Sequence record: OZ035806.1 | Source of the DNA: Felixounavirus NRG857CP1 | Direction: 5' to 3' (one strand) | DNA: 64,000 bases | Position numbers and translations under genes: made by a program | The notes under the pieces: generated by a model | Told to the model about the DNA's origin: nothing | The model's database searches: none | What the model saw: only the letters and a program-made list of their open reading frames with translations | Shown here: positions 3,122 to 64,000 of the stretch, piece by piece | Layout: each line of letters opens with the position of its first letter | How positions within the stretch are numbered: the first letter of the stretch is position 1

Positions 3122-3421
3122 TTAATCTGCCAACCTTAAATTAAAATTAACACCAAATTTTTCACATACTTCCAACATATACTCAAGGGAAACATTCCCA
3201 GTGAGGTGGATTATGTTGGATACACGAGCCTGAGAGATACCACAAATTTTAGCAACTTGCTCTTGAGAAAGACCTCTGGATTTAATCTCTCTCTTAAAAC
3301 GATGTGCAACGAAGTCTCTCATTTCGTCTACATCCATTGGACAAATATAACTCTCCATTTCAGCCTCTCTATCAGCCTCCCAATCATCTTGTGGGGCATA
3401 AGGGTCAAAAACCTCATTCAT
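3122..3421 (-). CDS. helix-turn-helix (XRE-like) DNA-binding protein
   Basis: C-terminal RGLSQEQVAKICGISQARVSNI HTH-like segment; start chosen at internal Met (MNEVF) to limit overlap; track ORF extends to 3451. Confidence 0.5.
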   Translation of the reverse strand: MNEVFDPYAPQDDWEADREAEMESYICPMDVDEMRDFVAHRFKREIKSRGLSQEQVAKICGISQARVSNIIHLTGNVSLEYMLEVCEKFGVNFNLRLAD

Positions 3422-7573: not shown

Positions 7574-10244
7574 CCTTACCTGTGCCAGTTACAAGCGTCT
7601 CACTCTTCAAACCTAAATTCTTAGATGCCTGACCATACATCCAGTCAGTTATGGCTTTAACTTCTTGAGTCATACTTTCTGGGCACTCCCAACTGTTTTC
7701 ATCGTGGTATGCCAGCAAAAGCCTAGCACCAATTGCTGGTTTTCGTCCATTTAATTTTGTCAACCCTTCTTCACATGCTCTTCTACAAGCAAGGTTAATC
7801 GCCTCATTTTGAATCTGAGCCTCTGAACCCATGAGCAAATAATTCAATAACTTATGTGGAGATTTACACCACAACCAAGCTCCAGCAACCTTTACAAAAC
7901 CCCCTTTAGAGATTGCAGCAGTCTTACCAAACACCTCTTCAAGTGCCTTTTTAGTTGCTTTGTAGTCAGCTTCCAAGTCATCTAGCAGCTTCTTAATTTT
8001 AGGCAAACGAATAAAGTAAGTCTGTTTAGTCAGTGCTCCTTCCTGAGTAGTTGCAGCTTTAATCGTCTTAGCAAACTTCTCATCACCTGCACCGAACAGC
8101 AGTGCATAGATACCATTCTTAGCTTTCTTACGACCTTTGCTAATCTCATGAAGAAGATTCTCATCCTGAGTAGCTCGACAAGTCAAGATATCCTGCTCAT
8201 CATTCAAGCTAAAGTAAATACTGTTCAGTGTATGTGCATCAGTCCCTGAATAGACAACGTACAGGTCATTCTCAGAGTCATAGCGAAGGTACTTATCAAT
8301 TTCTGGGTTGAGATACTCATCAAAATGTTTGCAGTAATAGCGTCCATCTTCTTGACGAATGAACTCAATCTCTTCTTTACCTTGCGTTACCGCTTTGGTG
8401 AAGTCTTTGTCACCCATAAAGTTACAAAGAAGAACTAGCTGGGCTGAGTTCATGTCTACAGAGACAACGTTAGTCCCTTCCTCACAAATCCACACTGCCC
8501 TCATTGGTTCCCCATAGACAGCAGCACCAGACGGTACGTTTACAATACCATATTGTGTCATACGTCCAGTTGAAGTACCAAACACCATTGCACCAGCACT
8601 AAGGCGACCATCAGGACGAATCTGGTTCAACCAACCTTTTTCATCATCCTTTGAGTTCTCAATAGTTCTGCGTCTGTGCATCAAAGTGTAGTATTTCGCA
8701 ATCTTCTGTCCAAGCTCACCTTCAATCGTATCATAAGATGATTCAGTAAGTTTTGGTGAAGTACGGATTAAGCAAGGCTCAAGCAAATCTGTGTACTTCT
8801 TCACAGACCAGTTATGCTCAATATACTGTACACCTTCGTGCTCAACATAGCTCAAACCACACCGCTCAACCATTTCCTGCCACTTAGGATGTTTTGTAAT
8901 CATCTTTTTATTGTCTTTGAAACGACAAACTTTGACAGGGCGACCATCTGAGTCTTTCTTGTAGTTCCAGTCATCTGGAATCCAACCAACTGATTTCAAG
9001 TAGTCTTTAACAACTGCTACCTGAGTCATACGAGAAACTTCAAACTCAATTGGTGTATACGGTGCATCAATCAAACCTGTGTAGCGACTTGACTCAAGTT
9101 CAAAGTGGTTAACAACGTGACTGTTATAGTACTTCACAGTTTTGACTGTTTTTACTGGCTTCCAGTCTTTGCATTTCTTACCAATCTTTGCATTCAACTC
9201 ATTGCAAATTTCACGAGCATCCTTCATTGCTACAAAACCCTCCTTGTACTCTTCACCAGTTACAGAGTTGGTTGGTGTATAGCAATTCCTTTTTTCAATG
9301 TTAAAAATCTTTGTAGTTGGCTTACCAAATGGTTTGATTTCATAAGTCTGCATCTCACCATTACGTACCTGCTGACGATACTTTGTCTTAGGGTACTTGG
9401 TAATTCTTTTCAGTCCATCTGCATGACCAAATGCTTCAACATACTCATTCCAAGCTTTTGCAAACTCTTCTCCAGTGACTTTACCTTTGGTCTTAATAGT
9501 TGGAGGTAGATGTGGTTCAACCTCTGAAGCAAGCTCATTAGTCAACTTGTCAAGTTCCTTTACATGGAACTCCATAAGCTCCTTATCAGCTTTCCAACCA
9601 TTGATAGCTTGTTGACTCATCCAGAAAGATGTTTCTTTAGCTCGCATGTAAGTTTCATAAGTGTCTATACCACACTTCTTAAGCTTGAGATACTCGTTAT
9701 CAAGTGCCCGTTTAGTTTTGGCGTTAATACGGATATCTTCTACAACACGAGTGAAGATTTCTGCATTCCACACACCCCAATGTTCAATCTCTGGTTTACG
9801 AACACCAACACGAGCACCCCATGCAGCCAAACCATGAGCACCTTTATAGCCCTTTGGAGTTGGTCTATCCATCCACTGAACACGAGACTGGATAAGAGAA
9901 TCCTGAAAGAAATTACTCCACGGTTTACACTTTGGATTATCAAAGTTCCATAAATCAGGTGCAATGTGATTGAAAACCCACCAGTCATAACCGAGACCAT
10001 TGTGGATGCAAAGACGTTTTGCCTTTAACGCAAACTCAATACCTTCACGTAAGCCACCCTTGATGTACTTAGTGTACTTGTGACCGAGGATAGGCTCATC
10101 TGTAAAGACCCATACAGGTGGCTCTTCATCGTCAGATTTATAGTCTGCGAAAGCCATTACGTGCACTTTAGTGAACTCAAGGAGTAAACCATCAGTTTCT
10201 GTATCACCAACTAAATGTAAGTTTTTAAAATCTACGTTTTCCAT
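7545..10244 (-). CDS. DNA polymerase, family A (Pol I-like) with 3'-5' exonuclease domain
   Basis: exo motif VGDTETDG; candidate motif B KKAKNGIYALLFGAG; motif C YHDE; start placed at Met with GAGGGA RBS (track ORF to 10274). Confidence 0.9.
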   Translation of the reverse strand: MENVDFKNLHLVGDTETDGLLLEFTKVHVMAFADYKSDDEEPPVWVFTDEPILGHKYTKYIKGGLREGIEFALKAKRLCIHNGLGYDWWVFNHIAPDLWNFDNPKCKPWSNFFQDSLIQSRVQWMDRPTPKGYKGAHGLAAWGARVGVRKPEIEHWGVWNAEIFTRVVEDIRINAKTKRALDNEYLKLKKCGIDTYETYMRAKETSFWMSQQAINGWKADKELMEFHVKELDKLTNELASEVEPHLPPTIKTKGKVTGEEFAKAWNEYVEAFGHADGLKRITKYPKTKYRQQVRNGEMQTYEIKPFGKPTTKIFNIEKRNCYTPTNSVTGEEYKEGFVAMKDAREICNELNAKIGKKCKDWKPVKTVKTVKYYNSHVVNHFELESSRYTGLIDAPYTPIEFEVSRMTQVAVVKDYLKSVGWIPDDWNYKKDSDGRPVKVCRFKDNKKMITKHPKWQEMVERCGLSYVEHEGVQYIEHNWSVKKYTDLLEPCLIRTSPKLTESSYDTIEGELGQKIAKYYTLMHRRRTIENSKDDEKGWLNQIRPDGRLSAGAMVFGTSTGRMTQYGIVNVPSGAAVYGEPMRAVWICEEGTNVVSVDMNSAQLVLLCNFMGDKDFTKAVTQGKEEIEFIRQEDGRYYCKHFDEYLNPEIDKYLRYDSENDLYVVYSGTDAHTLNSIYFSLNDEQDILTCRATQDENLLHEISKGRKKAKNGIYALLFGAGDEKFAKTIKAATTQEGALTKQTYFIRLPKIKKLLDDLEADYKATKKALEEVFGKTAAISKGGFVKVAGAWLWCKSPHKLLNYLLMGSEAQIQNEAINLACRRACEEGLTKLNGRKPAIGARLLLAYHDENSWECPESMTQEVKAITDWMYGQASKNLGLKSETLVTGTGKVGKSWLEVH

Positions 10245-56371: not shown

Positions 56372-57787
56372 ATGAGCGAGTTATTTAAACATGCGCACCT
56401 TCATGCAGGTCGAACTGAAAATGGTGCTGTAAACCATACTTCATCAATGTCTGCTCTGGTAGACTTCTACAAAGCCGCTGGCTCAAGCCGTAGCAATGTA
56501 GAAATCTTACCAGACCTGTTCTACAAAGCTTTGCGTGAGGATGTTGATGTTGCAGTTCGTATTTTACTGCATATGCGAGATGTACGAGAAGGCATGGGTG
56601 AGCGTAAAGCTTTCCGAACTGTTTTACTTCAAGCGATTGAAGATAAAGTTTTAGAACCTACACAGGTTCTTCGCATTATGGATAAGATTGCAGAACTTGG
56701 TCGTTTTGATGACTTCAAAATCTTCGTAGGTACTCGTTTCGAGACAGATGCCTTCAAACATTTAGAAGCAGCATTACTAGACCCTGCAACAGCAGGTTTA
56801 GCAGCTAAGTGGTTGCCACGAGTAAAACCACGCCACAAACAGTTTGTAAAACGTTTCTGTAAATTTGCAAACTTAAGCGAGAAGGAGTATCGCACACTGT
56901 TATCTGCACTGTCTGATACGGTTGAGCAAAAAATCTCTGCTAATGAGTTTGGTAAGATTGACTACAGCAAGATTCCTTCACTCGCTGCTGCACGTTACCA
57001 AAAACTCTTTAACCGTAAAGATGGAGAACGTTACAAAGCTTACATCGAATCACTCTCAAAGGGTGAGGCTAAGATTAACGCTGGTGCTGTTTACCCATAT
57101 GATGTGATTAAATCTATCAAGCATGGTAATGCAGATGTTGCTAATGAGCAGTGGAAAGCACTACCAAACTGGATGGCAGAAGGTGAGAACATCTTATGTA
57201 TGACTGATGTCTCAAGTTCAATGTCTTTGGTGAACTTTGGTTCAATTACTGCCCTTGATATTGGTGTATCACTTGCCTTGTATGTAGCAGAACGCAATAC
57301 AGGTTGCTTTAAAGATGAGTTAATGGTCTATTCAACAAACCCTCATTTCATTGAACTGAGTGGTGATTTACGAAACCGTCATCGTCAGGTAATGCGTCAT
57401 GTTGAATATGGTTCAACTAACTTACAAGCAGCTTTTGACCGTATTCTTGAAATAGGTAAGAGAAACAACTTGACTCAGAAAGATATGCCAAGTAAGCTTA
57501 TCATCTTCTCTGATATGGAGTTCAATCAGGTTGATGGTGCAAATGGTCGTACAAACTTTGAAGCAATTCAGAGTAAGTACAAAAAAGCTGGATACGAAAT
57601 GCCACAACTAGTATTCTGGTACTTAGCAAACCGTAATGGTACTTGCGAAGTATCTGTTAAGGATAATGGTGTAGCAATGGTATCAGGGTTCTCTCCAGCC
57701 ACTTTAAAAGCTCTGCTTGGTGGTGAGAAGTTTGACCCAATCAGCGTAATGCTCAAAGCAGTAATGATTGACCGTTACATCTGGTAA
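56372..57787 (+). CDS. vWA-like (MIDAS DxSxS) domain protein
   Basis: 471 aa; ILCMTDVSSSM resembles von Willebrand A MIDAS motif. Confidence 0.45.
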   Translation: MSELFKHAHLHAGRTENGAVNHTSSMSALVDFYKAAGSSRSNVEILPDLFYKALREDVDVAVRILLHMRDVREGMGERKAFRTVLLQAIEDKVLEPTQVLRIMDKIAELGRFDDFKIFVGTRFETDAFKHLEAALLDPATAGLAAKWLPRVKPRHKQFVKRFCKFANLSEKEYRTLLSALSDTVEQKISANEFGKIDYSKIPSLAAARYQKLFNRKDGERYKAYIESLSKGEAKINAGAVYPYDVIKSIKHGNADVANEQWKALPNWMAEGENILCMTDVSSSMSLVNFGSITALDIGVSLALYVAERNTGCFKDELMVYSTNPHFIELSGDLRNRHRQVMRHVEYGSTNLQAAFDRILEIGKRNNLTQKDMPSKLIIFSDMEFNQVDGANGRTNFEAIQSKYKKAGYEMPQLVFWYLANRNGTCEVSVKDNGVAMVSGFSPATLKALLGGEKFDPISVMLKAVMIDRYIW

Positions 57788-57952
57788 AAAGTTTTAAAAA
57801 GGGTATTGACAATGTGTTTAATACCCTTTAATATGTCCTACATAGAAACGAAATGAGAGCTTTTCTAAGATACTGAAAAATATTTTAAAAAAGTTCTTGA
57901 CAACCACTAAAAAATAATGTTAAAGTGGTTACATAGAGTTTGAAAAGTTTAT

Positions 57953-58029
57953 CTCTGTTTAGCTCAGCTTGGTAGAGCGTTCCGTTTGGGGCGGTAAGGC
58001 CGGAGGTTCAAGTCCTCCAACAGAGACCA
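57953..58029 (+). tRNA. tRNA-Pro (anticodon TGG)
   Basis: manual fold: acceptor CTCTGTT/AACAGAG, D-arm GCTCAGCTTGGTAGAGC, anticodon loop TTTGGGG, T-loop GGAGGTTCAAGTCCTCC, CCA encoded. Confidence 0.7.
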
Positions 58030-58036
58030 AATTAAT

Positions 58037-58114
58037 GTTCCAGTAGACAAAACGGTAAAGTCACCACTCTTTCAAAGTGGATATTTGAGGGTTCAAATCC
58101 CTTCTGGAACGCCA
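58037..58114 (+). tRNA. tRNA-Glu (anticodon TTC)
   Basis: acceptor GTTCCAG/CTGGAAC; anticodon arm CCACT-CTTTCAA-AGTGG; T-loop GAGGGTTCAAATCCCTT. Confidence 0.7.
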
Positions 58115-58121
58115 GTTTTGA

Positions 58122-58194
58122 CAGAAGACCAATTACAGCAAACTTAATCTTATTCATCTGAAGCTAAATCGGACAAAGAAGAGATTTGGTCTGG
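58122..58194 (+). repeat. inter-tRNA spacer element A (CAGAAGACC..GGTCTGG family)
   Basis: 5' box CAGAAGACCAATTACAGCAA, 3' box TTGGTCTGG; arms AGACCAA/TTGGTCT can pair. Confidence 0.5.
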
Positions 58195-58205
58195 TCATTA
58201 AGAAT

Positions 58206-58282
58206 TGCGGGTATAGAGAAAGGGCGTCTCACATGTCTCATTAGCATGGTATCGGCAGGTTCGACTCCTGCACCCGCCTCCA
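58206..58282 (+). tRNA. tRNA-Met or Ile2 (anticodon CAT)
   Basis: T8A9, D-stem GAGA/TCTC, anticodon arm CATGT-CTCATTA-GCATG, T-loop GCAGGTTCGACTCCTGC; acceptor base 1-72 ambiguous. Confidence 0.55.
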
Positions 58283-58288
58283 ATTTTG

Positions 58289-58348
58289 CAGAAGACCGTA
58301 TGCAGCAATAAACTACTTTTTGCGGATAAAAGAAAAAACACGGTCTGG
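58289..58348 (+). repeat. inter-tRNA spacer element B (CAGAAGACC..GGTCTGG family)
   Basis: CAGAAGACCGTATGCAGCAA...ACACGGTCTGG; arm pair GACCGT/ACGGTC covaries relative to element A. Confidence 0.5.
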
Positions 58349-58359
58349 CAATGTATTAA

Positions 58360-58436
58360 GGTTAGGAAGCACATAAGGTATGTGCGGTCGCCTGTTAAGC
58401 GAATGGCACAGGGTTCGAATCCCTGACTAACCGCCA
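58360..58436 (+). tRNA. tRNA-Asn (anticodon GTT)
   Basis: acceptor GGTTAGG/ACTAACC, anticodon loop CTGTTAA, T-loop CAGGGTTCGAATCCCTG, CCA encoded. Confidence 0.7.
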
Positions 58437-58445
58437 AATTTAAAT

Positions 58446-58533
58446 GTGTCGTTATCCCGTAGATGGTAGCGGTGGGGACTGTAAATCCCTTGTCATTGAG
58501 ACTCGGTAGGTTCGACTCCTACACGGCACACCA
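58446..58533 (+). tRNA. tRNA-Tyr (anticodon GTA), long variable arm
   Basis: anticodon arm GGGGA-CTGTAAA-TCCCT; long variable arm; T-loop GTAGGTTCGACTCCTAC; CCA encoded. Confidence 0.7.
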
Positions 58534-58539
58534 AATAAA

Positions 58540-58616
58540 GGTTATGTAGTTTAACTGGATAAAATACTCCCCTGTCACGGGAGATGATGTGAGTTCAAGT
58601 CTCATCGTAACCGCCA
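58540..58616 (+). tRNA. tRNA-Asp (anticodon GTC)
   Basis: acceptor GGTTATG/CGTAACC, anticodon arm CTCCC-CTGTCAC-GGGAG, T-loop GTGAGTTCAAGTCTCAT. Confidence 0.7.
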
Positions 58617-58677
58617 ATTTTGAGAGGGCTATTTAGCTCCTCCCTTAAAGAGTTCTTACGAGTATTCTTTAAAGGAG

Positions 58678-58754
58678 CAGAAGACCAATTACAGCAAGTA
58701 CGTATGATATTTTCAAGCCAATTTAATTTTGAAAAAATTTAAAACTTGGTCTGG
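58678..58754 (+). repeat. inter-tRNA spacer element C1 (CAGAAGACC..GGTCTGG family)
   Basis: CAGAAGACCAATTACAGCAAG...AAACTTGGTCTGG. Confidence 0.5.
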
Positions 58755-58767
58755 CTCAACAAATTTA

Positions 58768-58899
58768 CAGAAGACCGTTTACAGCAAAACTTAAACAATC
58801 TATTTCTCCGGTAAAGAAAAGGCGAAGGTTCGATTCCTTCACTCGGCAGATGTCGAGTTGGTGTAATGGTAGCACTTAAGATGATAAACAACGGTCTGG
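58768..58899 (+). repeat. inter-tRNA spacer element C2, containing tRNA-like fragments
   Basis: CAGAAGACCGTTTACAGCAAAAC...AACAACGGTCTGG; internal GAAGGTTCGATTCCTTC T-arm-like and GTCGAGTTGGTGTAATGGTAGCAC D-arm-like pieces in non-canonical order. Confidence 0.45.
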
Positions 58900-58900
58900 T

Positions 58901-59044
58901 AATTATCTTTGTAGATAAGTTATTAAGCTTACCTGTGAGTATGCGACCACAAAGGGTGAAAGGGTAAATTCTAGATTTAAACCCAACAAGGCACATCGCT
59001 ACAGACCTTAAGCAAGTCTGGGTAGCTTATCTACAAAGATAATT
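58901..59044. repeat. element bounded by a perfect 19-bp inverted repeat
   Basis: left AATTATCTTTGTAGATAAG, right CTTATCTACAAAGATAATT, about 106 bp between. Confidence 0.55.
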
Positions 59045-59048
59045 TAAT

Positions 59049-59124
59049 GGAAGTGTAGCAGAATGGTGATGCGGCAGACTTTTAATCTGACAGGCGATGG
59101 GTTCGAATCCCTCCACTTCTACCA
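59049..59124 (+). tRNA. tRNA-Lys (anticodon TTT)
   Basis: acceptor GGAAGTG/CACTTCT, anticodon loop CTTTTAA, T-loop TGGGTTCGAATCCC; paralogous to tRNA at 60758. Confidence 0.6.
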
Positions 59125-59128
59125 ATAT

Positions 59129-59205
59129 GGTTCAGTCGCAGATAAGGTAATGCAGGGGTCTCATAAGCCCTATGAATGTGGGTTCGATTCCCATCTGAAC
59201 CTCCA
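59129..59205 (+). tRNA. tRNA-Met (anticodon CAT), three G-C pairs in anticodon stem
   Basis: acceptor GGTTCAG/CTGAACC, anticodon arm GGGGT-CTCATAA-GCCCT, T-loop GTGGGTTCGATTCCCAT. Confidence 0.6.
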
Positions 59206-59207
59206 AT

Positions 59208-59282
59208 TGTGGGTTAGCATAAATGGTAATGCAAACGGCTGATAACCGTTAGAAGAGGGTTCGATACCCTCACCTACAACCA
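59208..59282 (+). tRNA. tRNA-Ile (anticodon GAT)
   Basis: D-arm GCATAAATGGTAATGC, anticodon arm AACGG-CTGATAA-CCGTT, T-loop GAGGGTTCGATACCCTC. Confidence 0.7.
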
Positions 59283-59296
59283 ATTTCAATAAAGTT

Positions 59297-59326
59297 GTTG
59301 ACATTAAGATGTGACCACTTTATAGT
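59297..59326 (+). promoter_or_regulatory. strong sigma70-like promoter inside tRNA cluster
   Basis: TTGACA-17 nt-TATAGT (GTTGTTGACATTAAGATGTGACCACTTTATAGTAACT). Confidence 0.55.
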
Positions 59327-59649
59327 AACTGAAAATGATTCAGCATATGTATAATTCAAACACCAATACATGAGTGTTAGACGTAACACAATGTGGGGAA
59401 ATTTGTTGTACATGTTCTGAATAGTTTTCGTTGCGTAGCGTCTATTTTGCAAATTTAAAATAAATGCAAACGACAATGTTTTTCTGGCAGTAGCTTGATA
59501 GGCTAAACACCAGTGAGGTCTTCCAATCCCTCATCAAAGAATTTGGCGTACTCGCCCACGGTATGATTAATAAGGTGGGCAACATTCTAAAGGGTATCCC
59601 TTATGGGGCTTGGCTTAAATGCAATGAGTACCCTTTAAAATGTTAATTA

Positions 59650-59731
59650 CGGGGCGTATCTCAGCGGTCTTCTAAACCGCCGTTAACCGAGTAAGTGGAG
59701 TATGCGGGTTCGAGTCCTGCCGCCTCGACCA
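59650..59731 (+). tRNA. atypical tRNA-like gene, possibly tRNA-Arg (TCT)
   Basis: canonical acceptor CGGGGCG/CGCCTCG, T-loop GCGGGTTCGAGTCCTGC, hairpin GCGGT-CTTCTAA-ACCGC; D region does not fold canonically. Confidence 0.4.
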
Positions 59732-59746
59732 ATTTTGGATGAAATC

Positions 59747-60094
59747 ATGAAAACTTGTATTAGGTGCAAACTTAGCAAGGATGAAAGTGATTTCTACATG
59801 AAAGATGGTAGGAGAACTCATTCATACTGTAAAAAGTGTGTTAATGAGCAAACCATAGAAAGACAAAGAGCACTTAAACTTTCAGCTATTGAGTACAAAG
59901 GTGGGGTTTGTCATGATTGTGGTAAAAGGTATCATCCAGCAGTGTATGACTTCCATCATTTGAATCCTTCAGATAAAGATTTTAACATTGGTCATAGAAA
60001 AAGTCTTAAGTTCTCTCAGGAGCTAAAGGACGAACTTGACAAATGTGTTTTGCTATGTTCAAATTGCCATAGGGTAAGACATGCAAAGTATTAG
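59747..60094 (+). CDS. HNH endonuclease embedded in tRNA cluster
   Basis: CIRC..CKKC zinc finger, HH..N..H core, CSNCH; start at ATG just after tRNA (track ORF begins 59702 inside the tRNA). Confidence 0.7.
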   Translation: MKTCIRCKLSKDESDFYMKDGRRTHSYCKKCVNEQTIERQRALKLSAIEYKGGVCHDCGKRYHPAVYDFHHLNPSDKDFNIGHRKSLKFSQELKDELDKCVLLCSNCHRVRHAKY

Positions 60095-60231
60095 TTAGCA
60101 GATTGCTTAGACGACCTTATCGGGTCTCCGTGTAAGGAGGTGGTCTGTATCTCATGTTTTCCAGAACATGTAAATAATCTGAGAAGGGGCTTTACAGTGT
60201 TGAGATAATACGGTAAGCTTCGAATTATAGT

Positions 60232-60314
60232 ATGGGACGATGTTAAGACTCTAAGGCATGAGCAACGGCCTCCAAAACCGTTTCAAAGGGGTTCAACTCC
60301 TCCGTCCCATGCCA
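60232..60314 (+). tRNA. tRNA-Trp (anticodon CCA), extended D region
   Basis: acceptor ATGGGAC/GTCCCAT, anticodon arm ACGGC-CTCCAAA-ACCGT, T-loop GGGGTTCAACTCCTCC; D region about 7 nt longer than usual. Confidence 0.45.
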
Positions 60315-60327
60315 AAGTCTTATTAGG

Positions 60328-60415
60328 GGTAGGTAGCGGCTAATGGCAGCCAAACAGTCTTGAAAACTGTTGCCACTGTAGAGATACGGTGAGGGTTCGA
60401 CTCCTTTACTTACCG
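60328..60415 (+). tRNA. tRNA-Ser (anticodon TGA), long variable arm
   Basis: anticodon arm ACAGT-CTTGAAA-ACTGT; about 20-nt variable arm; T-loop GAGGGTTCGACTCCTTT. Confidence 0.7.
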
Positions 60416-60572
60416 CCTAATAAGATTTAAAGCCAAGCTTCATTCGGATGTTGCTTTGGTATACCGCGTGTATTGTTGTACGCACTGATAAAGCACCTAG
60501 TAGGTGTCACGGAGAAGAGATAATATCAAGCTCTCCAAAGGTTCTAGTCACCGGATTAAACAAGACTATGCA

Positions 60573-60596
60573 AAGACCTTTTTAGGTCTTTTTAGA
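60573..60596 (+). terminator. terminator-like hairpin in tRNA cluster
   Basis: AAAGACC-TTTTTA-GGTCTTTTT. Confidence 0.4.
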
Positions 60597-60672
60597 GGGC
60601 TTCTAAGGTTATTACAGCTTGTTGTGGAACCTTGTTGCTTAGGTTCTTAGAAGTTCTCTAAAAAGATTTAAT

Positions 60673-60750
60673 GGGAGATTGACGGTAATTGGTAAACCTA
60701 CCATCCTTAGAAGTTGGTGTTTGAGGGTTCGAATCCCTTGTCTCCTACCA
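60673..60750 (+). tRNA. tRNA-Leu (anticodon TAG), short variable arm
   Basis: acceptor GGGAGAT/GTCTCCT, anticodon arm CCATC-CTTAGAA-GTTGG, T-loop GAGGGTTCGAATCCCTT, A73. Confidence 0.5.
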
Positions 60751-60757
60751 AATTAAT

Positions 60758-60833
60758 GCAGGTGTAGCAAAATGGTTATGCGGCTGACTCTTAATCAGTA
60801 AGACGATGGGTTCAATTCCCTCCACCTGTACCA
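60758..60833 (+). tRNA. tRNA-Lys (anticodon CTT)
   Basis: acceptor GCAGGTG/CACCTGT, anticodon arm GCTGA-CTCTTAA-TCAGT, T-loop TGGGTTCAATTCCC. Confidence 0.65.
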
Positions 60834-60839
60834 AAAAAT

Positions 60840-60915
60840 GGGGTCATAGTTTATATGGTTAAAATTCGAGTTTTGCAAACTTGGGAACTGAGTTCAATTC
60901 TCAGTGACTCCACCA
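60840..60915 (+). tRNA. tRNA-Ala (anticodon TGC)
   Basis: acceptor GGGGTCA/TGACTCC with G3-U70 pair (Ala identity element); anticodon arm CGAGT-TTTGCAA-ACTTG; T-loop CTGAGTTCAATTCTCAG. Confidence 0.75.
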
Positions 60916-60921
60916 ATTAGT

Positions 60922-60996
60922 GCATCCATAGTTTAAACGGGAAAATTACAGTCTTCCAAACTGAGGTTGAGGGTTCGATTCCCTCTGGATGCTCCA
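60922..60996 (+). tRNA. tRNA-Gly (anticodon TCC)
   Basis: acceptor GCATCCA/TGGATGC, anticodon arm ACAGT-CTTCCAA-ACTGA, T-loop GAGGGTTCGATTCCCTC. Confidence 0.75.
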
Positions 60997-61003
60997 AATT
61001 AAT

Positions 61004-61079
61004 GCTCCTATCGTATAATTGGCTATTACGGTTGCCTTGTAAGCAACTTATCAGGGTTCGAATCCTTGTGGGAGCACCA
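61004..61079 (+). tRNA. tRNA-Thr (anticodon TGT)
   Basis: acceptor GCTCCTA/TGGGAGC, anticodon arm GTTGC-CTTGTAA-GCAAC, T-loop CAGGGTTCGAATCCTTG. Confidence 0.75.
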
Positions 61080-61175
61080 ATTCAGAGGTCAAGTGAAAGA
61101 CCGCTTTGAGTCAACTGAAGACCGTAACAAATTCCACGGAGTTGAGTTAGCGGCACAACTTCAGACCTCTTTCAC

Positions 61176-61250
61176 ACTCGCTTAGTTTATATGGTAAAAC
61201 ACCACCCTTACAAGATGAAGAAAAAGGTTCAAGTCCTTTAGTGAGTACCA
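61176..61250 (+). tRNA. tRNA-Val (anticodon TAC), weak anticodon stem
   Basis: acceptor ACTCGCT/AGTGAGT, D-arm GTTT..AAAC, anticodon loop CTTACAA, T-loop AAAGGTTCAAGTCCTTT. Confidence 0.5.
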
Positions 61251-61251
61251 T

Positions 61252-61329
61252 GTTCCAGTATCCCAATTGGCAGAGGATGCAAGCTCAAACCTTGTATTAG
61301 TGACGGTTCGAATCCGTCTTGGAACACCA
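61252..61329 (+). tRNA. tRNA-Leu (anticodon CAA), short variable arm
   Basis: acceptor GTTCCAG/TTGGAAC, anticodon arm GCAAG-CTCAAAC-CTTGT, T-loop GACGGTTCGAATCCGTC, A73. Confidence 0.5.
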
Positions 61330-61334
61330 ATTTT

Positions 61335-61410
61335 GCAGGATTAGTTCAAATGGATAGAGCAACAGTCTACGAAACTGTTAATAGGGGTTCGAATCCCTTA
61401 TCCTGCGCCA
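61335..61410 (+). tRNA. tRNA-Arg (anticodon ACG)
   Basis: acceptor GCAGGAT/ATCCTGC, anticodon arm ACAGT-CTACGAA-ACTGT, T-loop GGGGTTCGAATCCC. Confidence 0.75.
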
Positions 61411-61428
61411 GATAAGCAAGAGGAATTT

Positions 61429-61671
61429 ATGCAAACATTAATCGTCGTTGAACATGAAAATCCCAATAGTATTGAGTTTGTAAGGGTTCCCACTATAGAT
61501 ACCCACATTTTCTTAAAAGTCGGATGGGAATGCGACCCAATAAAAGTAGAAAGATTTATTGGTCATTGCTTTTGTGGAAGACAACTTAAAAGTGTCAATT
61601 TTGAGACAATGTTACCAGAAAGCTCAGAAACAAGTAATAATGCTTACCTCCTTACGAGGGTTAGACAATGA
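61429..61671 (+). CDS. hypothetical small protein in tRNA cluster
   Basis: 80 aa ORF with AGGAAT RBS-like sequence. Confidence 0.35.
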   Translation: MQTLIVVEHENPNSIEFVRVPTIDTHIFLKVGWECDPIKVERFIGHCFCGRQLKSVNFETMLPESSETSNNAYLLTRVRQ

Positions 61672-62225
61672 GATACTTAAAATATGCTTCATGGATTTTC
61701 TTAGCTTTGCTAGAACCACTTGCAGCAATACTAGCAGTTATCTTAGCACCTTTCGTAGTTCCATTCTACAGTGAGAAGAAAGGACATCTACCTTTTGGAT
61801 TCAGATGGATGGAGACCTATGACAACCCAATTGATGGTGATGAAGGTCACGTTAAAAGATGGGCTAATATTAGATGGATTGGTAAACTAGGTGTCTACAT
61901 GCAAAGAGTTGGATGGCTCTGGAGAAACAAAGCTTATAACTTCTCTTACCATGTGTTAGGAAGAGATGTAAAAGATGTTACTAAGTGGAAAGGTAATATC
62001 AACGTAAGTTCTAACCCTGAAGATAATCAGACTGGTTATCTCCTAATGTGGAACAGGAATGCTTGGGGATTATTCGCTTTTATCCCATCAATTAAAATCT
62101 TTGGTAAACAATTTTACTGGAGAATTTATATTGGATGGAAACTAAAAAGCGTTGTCCCAGAAGAAAGAGCATTCTCAAGGGAAAGAGTTATGTTGGCATT
62201 CTTTATTCATCCACTAAGAAAGTAA
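61668..62225 (+). CDS. hypothetical membrane-associated protein in tRNA cluster
   Basis: 185 aa; N-terminal hydrophobic helices; Trp-rich. Confidence 0.4.
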   Translation: MRYLKYASWIFLALLEPLAAILAVILAPFVVPFYSEKKGHLPFGFRWMETYDNPIDGDEGHVKRWANIRWIGKLGVYMQRVGWLWRNKAYNFSYHVLGRDVKDVTKWKGNINVSSNPEDNQTGYLLMWNRNAWGLFAFIPSIKIFGKQFYWRIYIGWKLKSVVPEERAFSRERVMLAFFIHPLRK

Positions 62226-62233
62226 AGATTTAA

Positions 62234-62309
62234 AGGGGATTAGTTTACAAGGTTAAAACCTCGGTCTTTGAAATCGAAGAAGTTGGTTCAATTCCAACAT
62301 CCCCCGCCA
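62234..62309 (+). tRNA. tRNA-Gln (anticodon TTG)
   Basis: anticodon arm TCGGT-CTTTGAA-ATCGA, D-arm GTTT..AAAC, T-loop GTTGGTTCAATTCCAAC, CCA encoded. Confidence 0.65.
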
Positions 62310-62311
62310 AT

Positions 62312-62390
62312 GCTCCATTACTCCAATTGGCAGAGAGGCCAGACTTAAAATCTGTGTTATGTATCGGTTCGAATCCGATATGGAGTACCA
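62312..62390 (+). tRNA. tRNA-Leu (anticodon TAA), short variable arm
   Basis: acceptor GCTCCAT/ATGGAGT, anticodon loop CTTAAAA, T-loop ATCGGTTCGAATCCGAT, A73. Confidence 0.55.
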
Positions 62391-62395
62391 AATTT

Positions 62396-62471
62396 AGCGG
62401 TATAGCATAACTGGCAATGCAGCAGTCTCTGAAGCTGTCTTATTAAGGTTCAAATCCTTATGCCGCTGCCA
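62396..62471 (+). tRNA. tRNA-Gln (anticodon CTG)
   Basis: acceptor AGCGGTA/TGCCGCT, D-arm GCAT..ATGC, anticodon arm GCAGT-CTCTGAA-GCTGT, T-loop TAAGGTTCAAATCCTTA. Confidence 0.6.
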
Positions 62472-62502
62472 CTTCTAAGGATTCTTACGAGAGTCCTTAA
62501 AT

Positions 62503-62578
62503 GTGGCCTTATCATAAATGGTAATGACCCATGCTGTGAACATGGTCTATACGGGTTCAAATCCCGTAGGTCACCCCA
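62503..62578 (+). tRNA. tRNA-His (anticodon GTG)
   Basis: anticodon arm CCATG-CTGTGAA-CATGG, T-loop ACGGGTTCAAATCCCGT, discriminator C73. Confidence 0.7.
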
Positions 62579-62583
62579 ATTTA

Positions 62584-62658
62584 TAGTCCAAGTAGCTTAT
62601 ATGGTTAAAGCGCGTGTCTGAAAAACATGAGAAGAGGGTTCAAATCCCACTGGACTAC
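62584..62658 (+). tRNA. tRNA-Phe (anticodon GAA)
   Basis: acceptor TAGTCCA/TGGACTA, anticodon arm CGTGT-CTGAAAA-ACATG, T-loop GAGGGTTCAAATCCCAC; junction between acceptor and D-arm ambiguous. Confidence 0.6.
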
Positions 62659-62676
62659 CAATTTCAAAGGTGCTTA

Positions 62677-63411
62677 ATGAAAGAGATGACAGAACAAGGT
62701 AAGGAGATTTTTAATCTCTTAAAAACTGGTAAAGGGTTTTCTAACCCCCTTATTACTGGTGCAGCAGTTCTCGGTGGAACCGTAGCTGCCTCTACATCAC
62801 TTGTAAGCTCTATTAGCTCTGTATCAGACCCTACAGTAAAGGATAAGCTTGTTGCTGCTGGACTTACAACAGTCCTTCTAAACAGCTTTACAACAAGCCT
62901 TACAAGCACTACAGCAACTACTAAAACTCTGACAGACTATGGTCAAAAGTCTATTGATGAGTTTTCATCACGTATGCAGGTAGCAAAGGGGTATTCCAAT
63001 GTTATGGGTGCAGCAGGAGAACAAGTTGGTTGTACACCATTCAGTGGTATCATGGGTGTTGCTACAGAGTATGGTCAAAAAGCTATTGATATGATGAACA
63101 GTACACTAGATAGTGTTAATGGTGTGTTAAGTGACTTGCAAGATGCTATTGATAAGGGTCTTGATACTGTTTCTGATTTAGCTAATCAAGCTGTTAGTAA
63201 GATTAATGAAGGTATTTCAAAGATTACAGCTTATGCAGATGAAGTTGTGCAGATGATTGAAGAAGAAGCTGCCCTTATTGCAGAGTACCTTAAAACGAAT
63301 ATCAATGGGTTCTTAGCAGGCATCTTACCAGACTGGTTTGATGATGCCTGTAAAACTGGTGTAATTGACACTATTGCAACACCAGAAATGAAGAGCGCAT
63401 TACAGAAATAA
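62677..63411 (+). CDS. hypothetical Ser/Thr/Ala-rich protein
   Basis: start at ATG after tRNA-Phe (track ORF begins at GTG 62614 inside the tRNA). Confidence 0.4.
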   Translation: MKEMTEQGKEIFNLLKTGKGFSNPLITGAAVLGGTVAASTSLVSSISSVSDPTVKDKLVAAGLTTVLLNSFTTSLTSTTATTKTLTDYGQKSIDEFSSRMQVAKGYSNVMGAAGEQVGCTPFSGIMGVATEYGQKAIDMMNSTLDSVNGVLSDLQDAIDKGLDTVSDLANQAVSKINEGISKITAYADEVVQMIEEEAALIAEYLKTNINGFLAGILPDWFDDACKTGVIDTIATPEMKSALQK

Positions 63412-63412
63412 T

Positions 63413-63505
63413 GGAAGATTAACCCTAAAAGGTAAGGGAGCAGTTTGCTAAACTGCCAGTAGCTGAGAAATCGGTGTACCAGTTCAAGTCTGGTATCTTC
63501 CTCCA
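63413..63505 (+). tRNA. tRNA-Ser (anticodon GCT), long variable arm
   Basis: acceptor GGAAGAT/ATCTTCC, anticodon arm GCAGT-TTGCTAA-ACTGC, long variable arm, T-loop ACCAGTTCAAGTCTGGT. Confidence 0.7.
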
Positions 63506-63509
63506 ATTT

Positions 63510-63585
63510 GAATCCGTGACAGAAATGGCTATGTGCCTGTCTGCAAAACAGGTTTATAAGGGTTCGAGTCCCTTCGGATTCTCCA
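63510..63585 (+). tRNA. tRNA-Cys (anticodon GCA)
   Basis: acceptor GAATCCG/CGGATTC, anticodon arm CCTGT-CTGCAAA-ACAGG, T-loop AAGGGTTCGAGTCCCTT, U73. Confidence 0.7.
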
Positions 63586-63629
63586 ATTTATTTTACTCTC
63601 TCTCAATTAAAATAATAATAATGCCCTGC

Positions 63630-63690
63630 TATAAGTATTCTTCCTTTCGCTACCGAAGAGTATTTTTAGACAGGGCTTTTTTACAGAGTT
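63630..63690 (+). terminator. terminator-like hairpin after tRNA cluster
   Basis: GCCCTG...CAGGGC followed by TTTTTT. Confidence 0.4.
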
Positions 63691-63807
63691 ATACTTTATA
63701 AGAAGCCTTATACAGTATGTCTCTGACGTACATTGTGGTTTCTCCTTGACGGTCTCTGTACCGTCTTTTTTAAGGGGAAACATGATTAACTATTTGGAGA
63801 AAACATA

Positions 63808-64000
63808 ATGAGCGAGACCATTTATAAAGAACTTTATGAAGCTAATAAGAAGCTAGAATTTATGCAGAATACTATCATGGCAATTGCAGACAGATTGTCT
63901 GTAGCAACAGGTATTGATATTAAAGAAGCATCTATGGATGCACTTCTTGATGCTGTTGATGCAAAGTTCGAAGTTAAGAAAGAAGAGACTGCTACAGACT
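63808..64000 (+). CDS. hypothetical protein, 3'-truncated by window end
   Basis: ATG preceded by GGAGAAAAC RBS; ORF runs to the end of the window. Confidence 0.4.
   Translation, partial: MSETIYKELYEANKKLEFMQNTIMAIADRLSVATGIDIKEASMDALLDAVDAKFEVKKEETATD

What the first reader, a model, noticed from the sequence alone, without database searches (positions are those of the whole stretch)
58901..59044. Perfect 19-bp inverted repeat bracketing about 106 bp within the tRNA cluster
AATTATCTTTGTAGATAAG and its exact reverse complement flank a short non-coding segment between tRNA genes. A perfect inverted repeat of this length is unlikely by chance. It could form a long-stem structured RNA, or be the terminal inverted repeat of a miniature mobile element.
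Basis: seen in the sequence. Interest (0 to 1): 0.5.

Follow-up and report, generated by a model that had tools for sequence, protein, structure and literature searches.

The report
Conserved structured RNA before phage tRNA-Lys
The inverted repeat is the 24-base-pair closing stem of a conserved ~145-nt RNA, probably pseudoknotted, that Felix-O1-like phages encode immediately upstream of their lysine tRNA; it is not a mobile element, it lies beside a Ro60-like gene and tRNA-mimicking Y-like RNAs, and its function is still unknown.

Summary
AATTATCTTTGTAGATAAG (58901-58919) and its exact reverse complement (59026-59044) bracket 106 nt between tRNA-Asp and tRNA-Lys(UUU) in a Felixounavirus tRNA array. 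About 2e-4 such repeats are expected by chance in the window.

It is not a mobile element:
- One copy per genome, always at the same site.
- No target-site duplication and no empty site.
- No paired copy in 596 Gb of bacterial genomes or 5,426 E. coli genomes.

It is the closing helix P1 of a + strand structured RNA (24 bp in RNA, including U.G pairs).
- A long hairpin ends 2-4 nt before tRNA-Lys(UUU) in four lineages: Felix variant A, variant B (Felix/Susp/Mooglevirus), Pectobacterium Wc4/Arno and Yersinia P778.
- P1 is 23-27 bp in each, with largely or wholly different sequence.
- Compensatory changes occur in P1, in two inner hairpins and in a proposed pseudoknot (GCUUA/UAAGC versus GCUAA/UUAGC).
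- No Rfam family matches.

Function is inferred only. My best reading is a stable or processing RNA excised from the tRNA precursor by RNase P on the 3' side and RNase III in P1.

Context: the gene heading the array (56372-57787) is Ro60-like by fold. It is followed by four Y-RNA-like modules, one a YrlA-like tRNA mimic. The hairpin also occurs in a phage lacking that gene.

The parts
58901..58924 (+). P1 5' strand. The first 19 nt are the perfect repeat arm reported in the finding.
   Evidence: Pair counts give 24 pairs with 98.1% of cells paired and 4 pairs changed on both sides. Coordinates.
58927..58931 (+). GCUUA, the 5' strand of the proposed pseudoknot. It pairs with UAAGC in the H4 loop.
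   Evidence: the fourth pair is U-A in 11 variant-A copies and A-U in 15 variant-B copies. Wc4-1 has CUUGCUUA/UAAGCAAG. P778 has GCUAA/UUAGC.
58935..58950 (+). Small hairpin H1 (GUG-AGUAUGCGAC-CAC). This is the weakly supported, variable part of the interior.
   Evidence: MFE fold. Variant B has CAU...AUG at the equivalent place. Wc4-1 and P778 share GUG-UAACGUU-CAC. No formal count was made.
58962..58984 (+). Central hairpin H2: GGGU-AAAUU-CUA-GAUUU-AA-ACCC.
   Evidence: the outer pairs change G-C to A-U and U-A to C-G, and the inner pair changes A-U to U-A, between variants; the inner 4 pairs are 100% paired. H2 is present only in the Felix/Susp/Moogle lineages.
59002..59020 (+). Hairpin H4 (CAGAC-CUUAAGCAA-GUCUG). 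It abuts the P1 3' strand, and its loop carries the pseudoknot 3' strand UAAGC (59009-59013).
   Evidence: Searches show a G-C to A-U compensation. The stem is entirely different in Wc4-1 (CCAUC/GAUGG) and in P778 (AAAGUC/GACUUU), while the loop UWAGCAA is conserved.
59021..59044 (+). P1 3' strand. The last 19 nt are the perfect repeat arm.
59045..59124 (+). 4-nt spacer UAAU followed by tRNA-Lys(UUU). The RNase P site at 59048/59049 would define the 3' end of the hairpin RNA.
   Evidence: ARAGORN and Rfam. The hairpin-to-tRNA-Lys(UUU) distance is 2-4 nt in all four lineages. RNase P cleavage itself is inferred from general tRNA biology.

Best explanation
The repeat arms are the two strands of helix P1, the closing stem of a ~144-nt structured RNA domain.

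Shown:
- The domain lies on the + strand inside the phage tRNA array, 4 nt upstream of tRNA-Lys(UUU).
- It consists of a 23-27 bp stem, a 2-nt joint, a 5-nt segment (GCUWA), a variable multi-hairpin interior, and a terminal hairpin H4 stacked against the 3' strand of P1.
- The H4 loop (C-U-UWAGC-AA) can pair with the GCUWA segment to form a pseudoknot.
- The stem, H4, H2 and the loop pairing are maintained by compensatory changes across Ounavirinae-type phages.
- The interior evolves fastest.

Inferred:
- The domain is transcribed as part of the polycistronic precursor that starts at a promoter-like site near 57897-57926.
- RNase P cleavage at the 5' end of tRNA-Lys creates its 3' end.
- The two-turn A/U-rich double helix is cut by host RNase III. 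That would separate the upstream tRNA-mimic RNA from the tRNA-Lys block and leave a compact, nuclease-resistant small RNA.
- Its conserved core (top of P1, pseudoknot, H4 loop) would be the functional surface.

The one invariant association is with tRNA-Lys(UUU). I therefore favour a role tied to production or protection of that tRNA over a role that needs the phage Ro60-like protein. The molecular function itself remains untested.
For: The structure is real and on the RNA strand:
- MFE is -48.3 kcal/mol with z = -5.4 to -5.7 against shuffles.
- On 20 distinct copies, 98.6% of cells are paired against 29-46% for structures slid by 1-3 columns. Five pairs change on both sides, and 0 of 500 shuffles reach the covariation score.
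- A custom tally on 26 unique copies adds the pseudoknot pair (U-A to A-U) and three H2 pairs.
- Invariant U.G pairs in P1 would be A.C mismatches on the - strand.

Lineage evidence:
- Variants A and B occupy the same site in spacers of about 425-433 nt.
- Pectobacterium phage Wc4-1 has arms at 3192-3218 and 3334-3360, ending 2 nt before tRNA-Lys(UUU). Arno18 and Arno162 conserve P1, CUUGCUUA and H4 while the interior varies.
- Yersinia phage P778 has arms at 8495-8515 and 8636-8656, ending 4 nt before tRNA-Lys(UUU), with GCUAA and CCUUAGCAA.
- P1 length is 23-27 bp in all of them.

Other support:
- A shorter paralogue with a 26-bp stem, whose four mismatches are all + strand G.U pairs, ends 1 nt before tRNA-Leu(UAG). 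It folds to -40.2 kcal/mol on the + strand against -27.1 on the - strand, and it covaries in Suspvirus.
- Phage ESCO49 keeps the hairpin with tRNA-Lys although it has lost most of the upstream module.
- Promoter-like sites lie at 57897-57926 and 59298-59326, and no terminator-like site lies at the hairpin.
- That about 20 bp of dsRNA is the E. coli RNase III substrate size is established knowledge; I did not read the review listed (PMC3867540).
Against: - There are no expression or processing data. RNase III cleavage and the stability of the product are pure inference.
- Most sequence diversity is split between two clades (A and B), so the number of independent compensatory events is small.
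- The Wc4-1 and P778 versions are linked by synteny and shared motifs, not by a statistical model. Covariance model R1 did not reach the Wc4/Arno loci; P778 was never searched.
- The pseudoknot competes with local alternatives. In variant B and in P778, GCUAA can also pair with a nearby UUAGC/UUAGU. In Wc4-1 the MFE uses CUUGCUUA/UAAGCAAG as an extension of P1.
- The hairpin is dispensable for plaque formation in at least one isolate, SP116.
- It is absent from Kolesnikvirus and from Klebsiella phage FBKp34, although both encode tRNA-Lys(UUU).
Confidence: 0.6

Rival explanations
1. The hairpin is a Y RNA of the long-hairpin type (like YrlB or Yrn2). It would be bound by the phage-encoded Ro60-like protein together with the adjacent YrlA-like tRNA mimic, and would tether or gate that protein.
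For: - The 471-aa ORF at 56372-57787 heads the array on the same strand. Its AlphaFold model (pLDDT 87, pTM 0.87) matches only Ro60/TROVE proteins over its full length: the top 11 PDB hits have E 6e-8 to 9e-7 and TM up to 0.66, and include Rsr and Thermus phage Ro60.
- Homologues in mycobacteriophages are annotated 'Ro-like RNA binding protein'.
- The hairpin starts 1.1 kb downstream of that gene and directly follows a V/T/AS/D tRNA mimic arranged as in YrlA.
- The H4 stem and loop (ACAGACC-UUAAGCAA-GGUCUG) resemble the GAAG...UUACAGCAA frames that track the Ro60-like gene.
Against: - The complete Wc4-1 genome has no Ro60-like gene (best tblastn E = 0.2), yet it keeps the hairpin with P1, H4 and the loop conserved against Arno18/162.
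- The hairpin has no GNCGAAN0-1G or CGAA motif and no bulged helix.
- The H4 stem sequence is not conserved outside the Felix group.
- FBKp34 has the Ro60-like gene and the frames but no such hairpin before tRNA-Lys.
- No Rfam Y-RNA match was found, even at E up to 10.
Confidence: 0.22
2. The hairpin is an anti-defence RNA linked to tRNA-Lys(UUU). It would act as a decoy or inhibitor of host nucleases that attack tRNA-Lys, or as a device that boosts or times delivery of the phage tRNA-Lys.
For: - The only invariant neighbour in four lineages is tRNA-Lys(UUU), at 2-4 nt.
- Host tRNA-Lys is degraded by the PARIS effector AriB, and a phage tRNA-Lys neutralises that defence (PMC11464382).
- The interior of the RNA evolves fastest while the core is fixed. 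This is compatible with an arms race.
Against: - The evidence is purely circumstantial.
- The apparent similarity of H4 to the anticodon stem-loop of the phage tRNA-Lys is confined to the Felix group and fails in Wc4-1 and P778.
- Kolesnikvirus and FBKp34 carry tRNA-Lys(UUU) without the hairpin.
Confidence: 0.1
3. The arms are the terminal inverted repeats of a miniature inverted-repeat transposable element inserted in the tRNA array.
For: Perfect 19-bp terminal repeats bracket a short non-coding segment.
Against: - There is no other copy of either arm in the 64-kb window, even with 3 mismatches.
- The flanks are ...GGT | AATTATC...GATAATT | TAAT..., with no direct duplication.
- Every related phage has a hairpin at the same site and none has an empty site.
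- The arms differ between lineages but stay complementary.
- In 596 Gb of genomes there are 21 single-arm chance hits, none paired and none enterobacterial.
- There is no match in 5,426 E. coli genomes.
Confidence: 0.02
4. The repeat is a DNA-level signal, such as a cruciform, a replication or packaging site, or a homing-endonuclease target, or it encodes a small peptide.
For: - The perfect palindromic arms could extrude as a cruciform.
- An HNH endonuclease ORF lies 650 nt downstream.
- A 33-aa ORF (58866-58967) overlaps the 5' arm.
Against: - In variant B, Wc4-1, P778 and hairpin 2 the stems contain G.U positions that pair only in + strand RNA and would be mismatches in DNA.
- The loop-to-5'-segment covariation has no DNA rationale.
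- The 33-aa ORF starts inside the D-arm of the tRNA mimic. It is frame-shifted by a 2-nt deletion in SUSP2, by 4 nt in Mijalis/Sf15.
Confidence: 0.04

Closest known systems
Bacterial long-hairpin Y RNAs (S. Typhimurium and M. smegmatis YrlB, D. radiodurans Yrn2) encoded beside YrlA and Ro60/Rsr (PMC4201824)
   Same: It is a small RNA whose 5' and 3' ends form a long stem. It is encoded about 1 kb downstream of a Ro60-like gene on the same strand, directly after a YrlA-like tRNA mimic, and probably comes from one precursor.
   Different: It has no GNCGAAN0-1G or CGAA motif and no bulged helix. Its interior is a multi-hairpin junction with a pseudoknot rather than a small pyrimidine-rich loop. 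It is also present in a phage (Wc4-1) without any Ro60-like gene. Binding has not been tested.
Stable RNAs C and D (species 1 and 2) in the phage T4 tRNA gene region (from my own knowledge, not checked here)
   Same: They are non-tRNA small RNAs of about 120-140 nt embedded in a phage tRNA operon, released by the tRNA-processing machinery, with function unknown.
   Different: I made no sequence or structure comparison. T4 is unrelated to Ounavirinae, and I know of no 24-bp closing stem or pseudoknot reported for those RNAs.
RNase III processing stems (the stalks flanking 16S/23S rRNA, and phage T7 early-mRNA hairpins); established knowledge; the review listed (PMC3867540) was not read
   Same: Two distant complementary segments form 20 bp or more of dsRNA around an RNA that is to be excised from a polycistronic precursor. 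The A/U-rich stem is two helical turns long.
   Different: Cleavage has not been shown. The conserved loop, pseudoknot and H4 would be unnecessary for a mere cleavage site.
Phage Ro60 with Y-RNA-like RNAs (mycobacteriophages, CcrColossus, Bacillus phage G; Thermus phage phiLo Yrl1/Yrl2, PMC12135203)
   Same: A phage-encoded Ro60-fold protein has small structured RNAs encoded next to it.
   Different: Here the protein belongs to the DUF2828/DUF7788 family rather than Pfam TROVE, and it heads a 25-tRNA array. The neighbouring RNAs carry a GAAG...UACAGCAA signature instead of CGAA. The hairpin of the finding lacks both motifs.

Membership tests
Miniature inverted-repeat transposable element | Multiple dispersed copies sharing the terminal repeats | tested here: not met
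   Each arm occurs once in the window. Related phages have one copy each at one site. There are no paired copies in 596 Gb of genomes and no match in E. coli genomes.
Miniature inverted-repeat transposable element | Target-site duplication, and insertion polymorphism with empty sites | tested here: not met
   The flanks GGT/TAAT are not duplicated. All relatives have an occupied site. The only loss is a T-loop to T-loop deletion that also removes part of tRNA-Lys.
Y RNA (Ro60 ligand) | Encoded near a Ro60 gene on the same strand (within about 4 kb in bacteria) | tested here: inconclusive
   Met in the window: the Ro60-like ORF is at 56372-57787 and the hairpin 1.1 kb downstream. Also met in P778. 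Not met in Wc4-1, which has the hairpin but no Ro60-like gene.
Y RNA (Ro60 ligand) | 5' and 3' ends paired into a long stem | tested here: met
   P1 is 23-27 bp in all lineages.
Y RNA (Ro60 ligand) | Ro60-binding motif (GGUCCGA bulged helix, GNCGAAN0-1G, or CGAA) | tested here: not met
   No such motif occurs in 58901-59044 or in variant B, Wc4-1 or P778. Motif definitions are from PMC4201824 and PMC12135203.
Y RNA (Ro60 ligand) | Physical binding by Ro60/Rsr | not testable with these tools
   Requires RIP or EMSA with the protein encoded at 56372-57787.
RNase III substrate | About two helical turns (20 bp or more) of dsRNA | tested here: met
   There are 24 consecutive pairs in the window and 23-27 in the other lineages.
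RNase III substrate | Site-specific cleavage that depends on rnc | not testable with these tools
   Needs RNA end mapping in rnc+ and rnc- hosts.
Any curated Rfam family (ribozymes, riboswitches, tRNA-like RNAs, Y RNA, 6S and others) | Covariance-model match | tested here: not met
   No hit overlaps 58901-59044 at E up to 1 over 57500-64000, or at E up to 10 over 58617-59048.
Intrinsic terminator | G+C-rich stem followed by a U tract | tested here: not met
   The scan reports none at this site. The stem base is A/U-rich and is followed by UAAU and then a tRNA.

The most novel reading that the evidence does not exclude
The hairpin is one component of a previously undescribed RNA-protein module at the head of phage tRNA arrays. 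The module would comprise a DUF2828/DUF7788 protein with a Ro60 fold, several Y-RNA-like 'frames' carrying a GAAG...UACAGCAA signature (one enclosing a circularly permuted tRNA mimic), and this pseudoknotted long hairpin fused to tRNA-Lys(UUU). In this reading the hairpin RNA protects, times or substitutes for tRNA-Lys during attack by host tRNA-Lys nucleases such as PARIS or PrrC. It would work either alone or as a ligand of the Ro60-like protein or of host Rsr.
Probability: 0.15. Interest if true: 0.8.

Novelty: new member of a known kind. Interest (0 to 1): 0.55.

Why it matters
Felix-O1-like phages are widely used typing and therapy phages, yet the non-tRNA parts of their tRNA arrays are unannotated or mis-annotated as 'hypothetical protein' or 'tRNA-Thr'.

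This work defines a new candidate structured-RNA family by comparative evidence: a long stem, a pseudoknot and a conserved UWAGCAA loop. The family is always fused to tRNA-Lys(UUU), a tRNA at the centre of phage-host conflict.

It also places that RNA beside a Ro60-fold protein and Y-RNA-like tRNA mimics in coliphages and Salmonella phages. Ro60 and Y RNA biology could be studied genetically in these systems with simple deletions.

If the hairpin turns out to be only a processing stem, the result is still useful for annotation and for engineering tRNA arrays.

Tried and rejected
- **Rfam.** Scans at permissive thresholds found nothing at the hairpin.
- **Covariance model R1.** It recovered only close copies and their reverse strands. 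It did not reach the Wc4/Arno loci, and it gave only weak hairpin-like noise elsewhere. It therefore gives no statistical proof of homology.
- **Split or permuted tRNA gene, or group I intron.** I considered this because a T-arm, acceptor strands and a D-arm lie just upstream. That module is self-contained: its closed acceptor-like stem covaries. The hairpin is separable from it in ESCO49.
- **Kissing interaction between the H4 loop (UAAGCAA) and the hairpin-2 loop (UUGCUUA).** In Suspvirus (variant B) the loops are UUAGCAA and UUGCUUU, so the change is not compensated. I dropped the idea.
- **H4 as a mimic of the tRNA-Lys anticodon stem-loop.** This holds only in the Felix group and fails in Wc4-1 and P778.
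- **Small ORF 58866-58967.** It is not conserved in frame.
- **Terminator.** No match.
- **Literature.** I found nothing on non-tRNA RNAs of Felix-like tRNA arrays. The supplementary phage list of Chen et al. 2014 is not held, so I cannot exclude that the upstream YrlA-like RNA was already listed there.
- **Kolesnikvirus (M7, phi63_307, PMBT37) and Otagovirus Bobbio loci.** They show no hairpin before tRNA-Lys.
- **Profile search of PDB sequences with the Ro60-like family.** It gave only non-significant Ro60 hits (E = 0.47 and 1.2). The fold search was needed.

Full report
**1. Observation.**
The window is a Felixounavirus (Felix-O1-like myovirus). It is 100% identical to OZ035796 over the region, with hundreds of relatives at 97-100%. 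ARAGORN finds 25 tRNA genes on the + strand between 57953 and 63585.

The reported repeat is exact. AATTATCTTTGTAGATAAG lies at 58901-58919 and its reverse complement at 59026-59044. They sit in the 432-nt spacer between tRNA-Asp (58540-58616) and tRNA-Lys(UUU) (59049-59124). The arms extend to 22 nt with one DNA mismatch. As RNA they extend to 24 consecutive pairs, because the added positions are U.G, U-A, A-U, U.G and U.G.

From base composition, about 2.4e-4 such repeats are expected in the window, and this is the only one.

**2. Not a mobile element.**
- Neither arm recurs in the 64-kb window, even with three mismatches.
- The flanks carry no duplication.
- In every related phage examined the tRNA-Asp to tRNA-Lys spacer has about the same length (424-433 nt), and a hairpin occupies the same place.
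- A scan of 596 Gb of bacterial and archaeal genomes for the arm returned 21 isolated single matches. None was paired and none was in enterobacteria.
- The 144-nt element has no match in 5,426 complete E. coli genomes.
- The only natural loss I found (Salmonella phage SP116) fuses the T-loop of the upstream tRNA-like module to the T-loop of tRNA-Lys. It removes the hairpin and the 5' part of tRNA-Lys by homologous recombination. It is not an excision.

**3. A conserved RNA structure on the tRNA strand.**
The element folds with z = -5.4 to -5.7 relative to shuffles.

Two sequence variants occupy the site. Variant A is found in most Felixounavirus, including the window. Variant B is found in some Felixounavirus, Suspvirus and Mooglevirus.

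On 20 distinct copies, the nested helices I specified (P1, the inner part of H2, and H4) are paired in 98.6% of cells. Structures slid by 1-3 columns give 29-46%. Five pairs change on both sides, and no shuffle of 500 reaches the observed covariation score.

A register-corrected tally on 26 unique copies shows these changes:
- P1 pair 4: U-A, U.G and C-G.
- P1 pair 12: U-A and C-G.
- P1 pair 19: G-C and C-G.
- P1 pair 24: U.G and G-C.
- H4 pair 3: G-C and A-U.
- H2: three changed pairs.

Several positions are invariant U.G or switch between A-U and G.U. These pair only in + strand RNA. The diversity is dominated by two clades, so the independent events are few. I treat this as good but not overwhelming support.

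**4. Pseudoknot.**
Two nucleotides after the 5' strand of P1 lies GCUUA (58927-58931). It is complementary to UAAGC in the 9-nt loop of H4 (59009-59013).

In all 15 variant-B copies the pair of segments reads GCUAA and UUAGC, a compensated U-A to A-U change. The same two states recur in more distant phages: CUUGCUUA/UAAGCAAG in Pectobacterium phage Wc4-1, and GCUAA/UUAGC in Yersinia phage P778.

Local alternative pairings exist in variant B, in P778 and in the Wc4-1 MFE. The pseudoknot is therefore the best-supported reading, not a proven one.

**5. Distant lineages.**
Anchoring on synteny rather than sequence, I found long hairpins ending 2-4 nt before tRNA-Lys(UUU) in two further groups.
- Wc4-1 (L036): arms at 3192-3218 and 3334-3360, with 115 nt between them. 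Arno18 and Arno162 are 92% identical to it.
- P778 (L048): arms at 8495-8515 and 8636-8656.

Their P1 sequences are mostly unrelated to the window's but are 23-27 bp long. Their H4 stems are completely different (CCAUC/GAUGG and AAAGUC/GACUUU), while the loop CUUAAGCAA or CCUUAGCAA and its position against the 3' strand of P1 are kept. Within the Pectobacterium clade the interior varies while P1, the CUUGCUUA segment and H4 are constant.

Covariance model R1, built from variants A and B, has an effective sequence number of 1.5 and did not detect the Wc4/Arno copies; P778 was never searched. Their homology therefore rests on position, architecture and the shared 10-11-nt motif.

The hairpin is absent in Kolesnikvirus, where tRNA-Phe abuts tRNA-Lys. 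It is also absent in Klebsiella phage FBKp34.

**6. A paralogue.**
A second long hairpin lies at 60582-60671. Its stem is 26 bp, and its four 'mismatches' are all G.U on the + strand. It folds to -40.2 kcal/mol on the + strand against -27.1 on the - strand. It ends 1 nt before tRNA-Leu(UAG).

It shares with the first hairpin the stem-base sequence (UCUUUNUAGA / UCUANAAAGAU), the 3' tail UUUAAU before the tRNA, and AAG(G)UUAUUA(C)AGCUU after the 5' arm. It is conserved in Suspvirus with a covarying inner stem.

In P778 and Wc4-1, tRNA-Leu(UAG) directly follows tRNA-Lys(UUU). The Felix arrangement therefore looks like a duplication of 'hairpin + tRNA block'.

**7. Mechanism (inferred).**
Promoter-like sites lie at 57897-57926, just before the first tRNA, and at 59298-59326, after tRNA-Ile. 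Nothing terminator-like lies at the hairpin. The hairpin is therefore internal to a polycistronic tRNA precursor.

RNase P cleavage at 59048/59049 must create its 3' end. This follows from general tRNA biology.

A two-turn, A/U-rich perfect helix is the canonical E. coli RNase III substrate. The maintenance of 23 bp or more in every lineage, far more than is needed to close a junction, suggests recognition of P1 as dsRNA. I therefore propose RNase III cleavage in P1. That would release a compact pseudoknotted RNA and separate the upstream tRNA mimic from the tRNA-Lys block.

What the released RNA does is unknown. Its constant partner is tRNA-Lys(UUU), the tRNA degraded by the PARIS effector and rescued by a phage tRNA-Lys (PMC11464382). 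This makes a tRNA-Lys-linked role attractive but unproven.

**8. Context found on the way.**
*The Ro60-like gene.* The ORF at 56372-57787 (+), immediately upstream of the array, matches Pfam DUF2828 and DUF7788 plus a weak vWA, and PHROG 850 'RNA-binding protein'. Its AlphaFold model (pLDDT 87.2, pTM 0.87) matches full-length Ro60/TROVE structures only: Xenopus and human Ro60, D. radiodurans Rsr and Thermus phage phiLo Ro60, at E 6e-8 to 9e-7. All lower hits are isolated vWA domains. The family occurs in 709 phage records and is called 'Ro-like RNA binding protein' in mycobacteriophages.

*The framed RNAs.* Downstream lie four modules framed by (A/G)CAGAAGACC-NNUUACAGCAA ... YGGUCUGG, at 58121-58196, 58288-58350, 58677-58756 and 58767-58901.

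*The tRNA mimic.* The fourth module encloses these elements:
- an anticodon-like arm (58803-58819);
- a T-arm (58824-58840);
- a closed 7-bp acceptor-like hairpin (58841-58858);
- a D-arm (58861-75).

This is the V/T/AS/D order of YrlA (PMC4201824). Its closed stem covaries: ACUCGGC/GUCGAGU, ACACGUU/GGCGUGU and ACCCUUC/GAAGGGU.

*The same signature elsewhere.* Four copies of GAAG...UACAGCAA and a T/AS/D mimic follow the Ro60-like gene of the unrelated Klebsiella phage FBKp34. P778 has one such frame. The Ro-less arrays of Wc4-1 and M7 have none.

*Conclusion from context.* The frames therefore track the Ro60-like gene. The long hairpin does not, because Wc4-1 has the hairpin but no Ro60-like gene anywhere in its 92-kb genome. 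This is why I rank the 'Y RNA' reading of the hairpin second, despite the suggestive parallel with the YrlA plus long-hairpin YrlB pairs of bacteria.

**9. Comparison with known families.**
No Rfam family matches. The closest analogues are:
- long-hairpin Y RNAs, which share the context and general shape but not the motif or the strict co-occurrence;
- RNase III processing stems, which share the geometry only;
- from my own knowledge, the stable RNAs C and D of the T4 tRNA region, which share the genomic niche.

I file the element as a new member of the class of structured small RNAs embedded in phage tRNA operons.

**10. Verdict.**
- The structured-RNA reading is supported, at about 0.9 for 'conserved + strand RNA structure'.
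- The mobile-element reading is rejected.
- The composite mechanism (processed stable RNA, with P1 as an RNase III handle and a tRNA-Lys-linked role) has confidence 0.6.
- The Y-RNA ligand reading has about 0.2.
- Interest is 0.55. The element is a well-supported new RNA family, and its setting (a Ro60-fold protein, tRNA mimics, tRNA-Lys) makes several open questions directly testable.

Noticed in passing
window 56372-57787 (+): A 471-aa ORF heads the tRNA array. It matches Pfam DUF2828 and DUF7788 plus a weak vWA. Its AlphaFold model (pLDDT 87) matches only Ro60/TROVE proteins over its full length (E 6e-8 to 9e-7). Homologues occur in 709 phage records, and in Klebsiella phage FBKp34 and Yersinia phage P778 the gene again sits at the head of a tRNA array.
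   Followed up: yes
window 58767-58901 (+): A circularly permuted tRNA mimic lies inside an AGACCG/CGGUCU stem, in the YrlA order V/T/AS/D. It has an anticodon-like arm (58803-58819), a T-arm (58824-58840), a closed 7-bp acceptor-like hairpin (58841-58858) and a D-arm (58861-58875). The closed stem covaries in Suspvirus and Mooglevirus. Some GenBank records call a 'tRNA-Thr' here.
   Followed up: partly
window 58121-58196, 58288-58350, 58677-58756, 58767-58901 (+): Four modules are framed by (A/G)CAGAAGACC-NNUUACAGCAA ... YGGUCUGG. The signature GAAG...UACAGCAA recurs four times after the Ro60-like gene of the unrelated Klebsiella phage FBKp34 (L073 10441-10920) and once in P778. It is absent from the Ro-less arrays of Wc4-1 and M7. 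These are candidate Y RNAs with a new binding motif.
   Followed up: partly
window 60582-60671 (+): A second long RNA hairpin ends 1 nt before tRNA-Leu(UAG). It has 26 bp, including 4 G.U pairs on the + strand only, and appears paralogous to the hairpin of the finding. It is conserved in Suspvirus with a covarying inner stem. A small AGACC/GGUCU hairpin followed by a U-run (about 60570-60600) overlaps its 5' arm as an alternative fold.
   Followed up: partly
window 59650-60094 (+): A weak tRNA-like hit (59650-59728, 31.7 bits, not called by ARAGORN) overlaps the start of a 130-aa HNH endonuclease-like ORF (59702-60094). This looks like a homing endonuclease inserted in or next to a degraded tRNA gene.
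   Followed up: no
L044 (Salmonella phage SP116) and L007 (Escherichia phage ESCO49): These are natural deletions. SP116 fuses the T-loop of the tRNA mimic to the T-loop of tRNA-Lys, losing the hairpin and an intact tRNA-Lys. ESCO49 lacks tRNA-Asp and most of the upstream modules but keeps the hairpin and tRNA-Lys.
   Followed up: partly
L036 3072-3190 (Pectobacterium phage Wc4-1): An unannotated tRNA-like element sits just upstream of the Wc4-1 hairpin. It has a 7-bp acceptor stem (GCCUGUU/GACAGGC), a T-arm (UGUGG-UUCGACU-CCGCA) and a long insert in place of the D/anticodon region.
   Followed up: no
L048 6647-6838 and 8128, 8368 (Yersinia phage P778): Another long hairpin (27-nt arms) lies between the Ro60-like gene and the first tRNA. 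Several T-arm motifs outside called tRNAs sit in the spacer before the tRNA-Lys hairpin.
   Followed up: no
phage records GU169904 (Staphylococcus phage SA1), MG065664 (Campylobacter phage A132): These records, attributed to unrelated hosts, contain this Felix-like region at 94-98% identity. They probably reflect contamination or mis-assembly in the deposited sequences.
   Followed up: no
window 57897-57926 and 59298-59326 (+): The best sigma-70-like promoter matches lie just before the first tRNA (10/12, with an extended -10 TG) and just after tRNA-Ile (11/12). This suggests at least two transcription units in the array.
   Followed up: no
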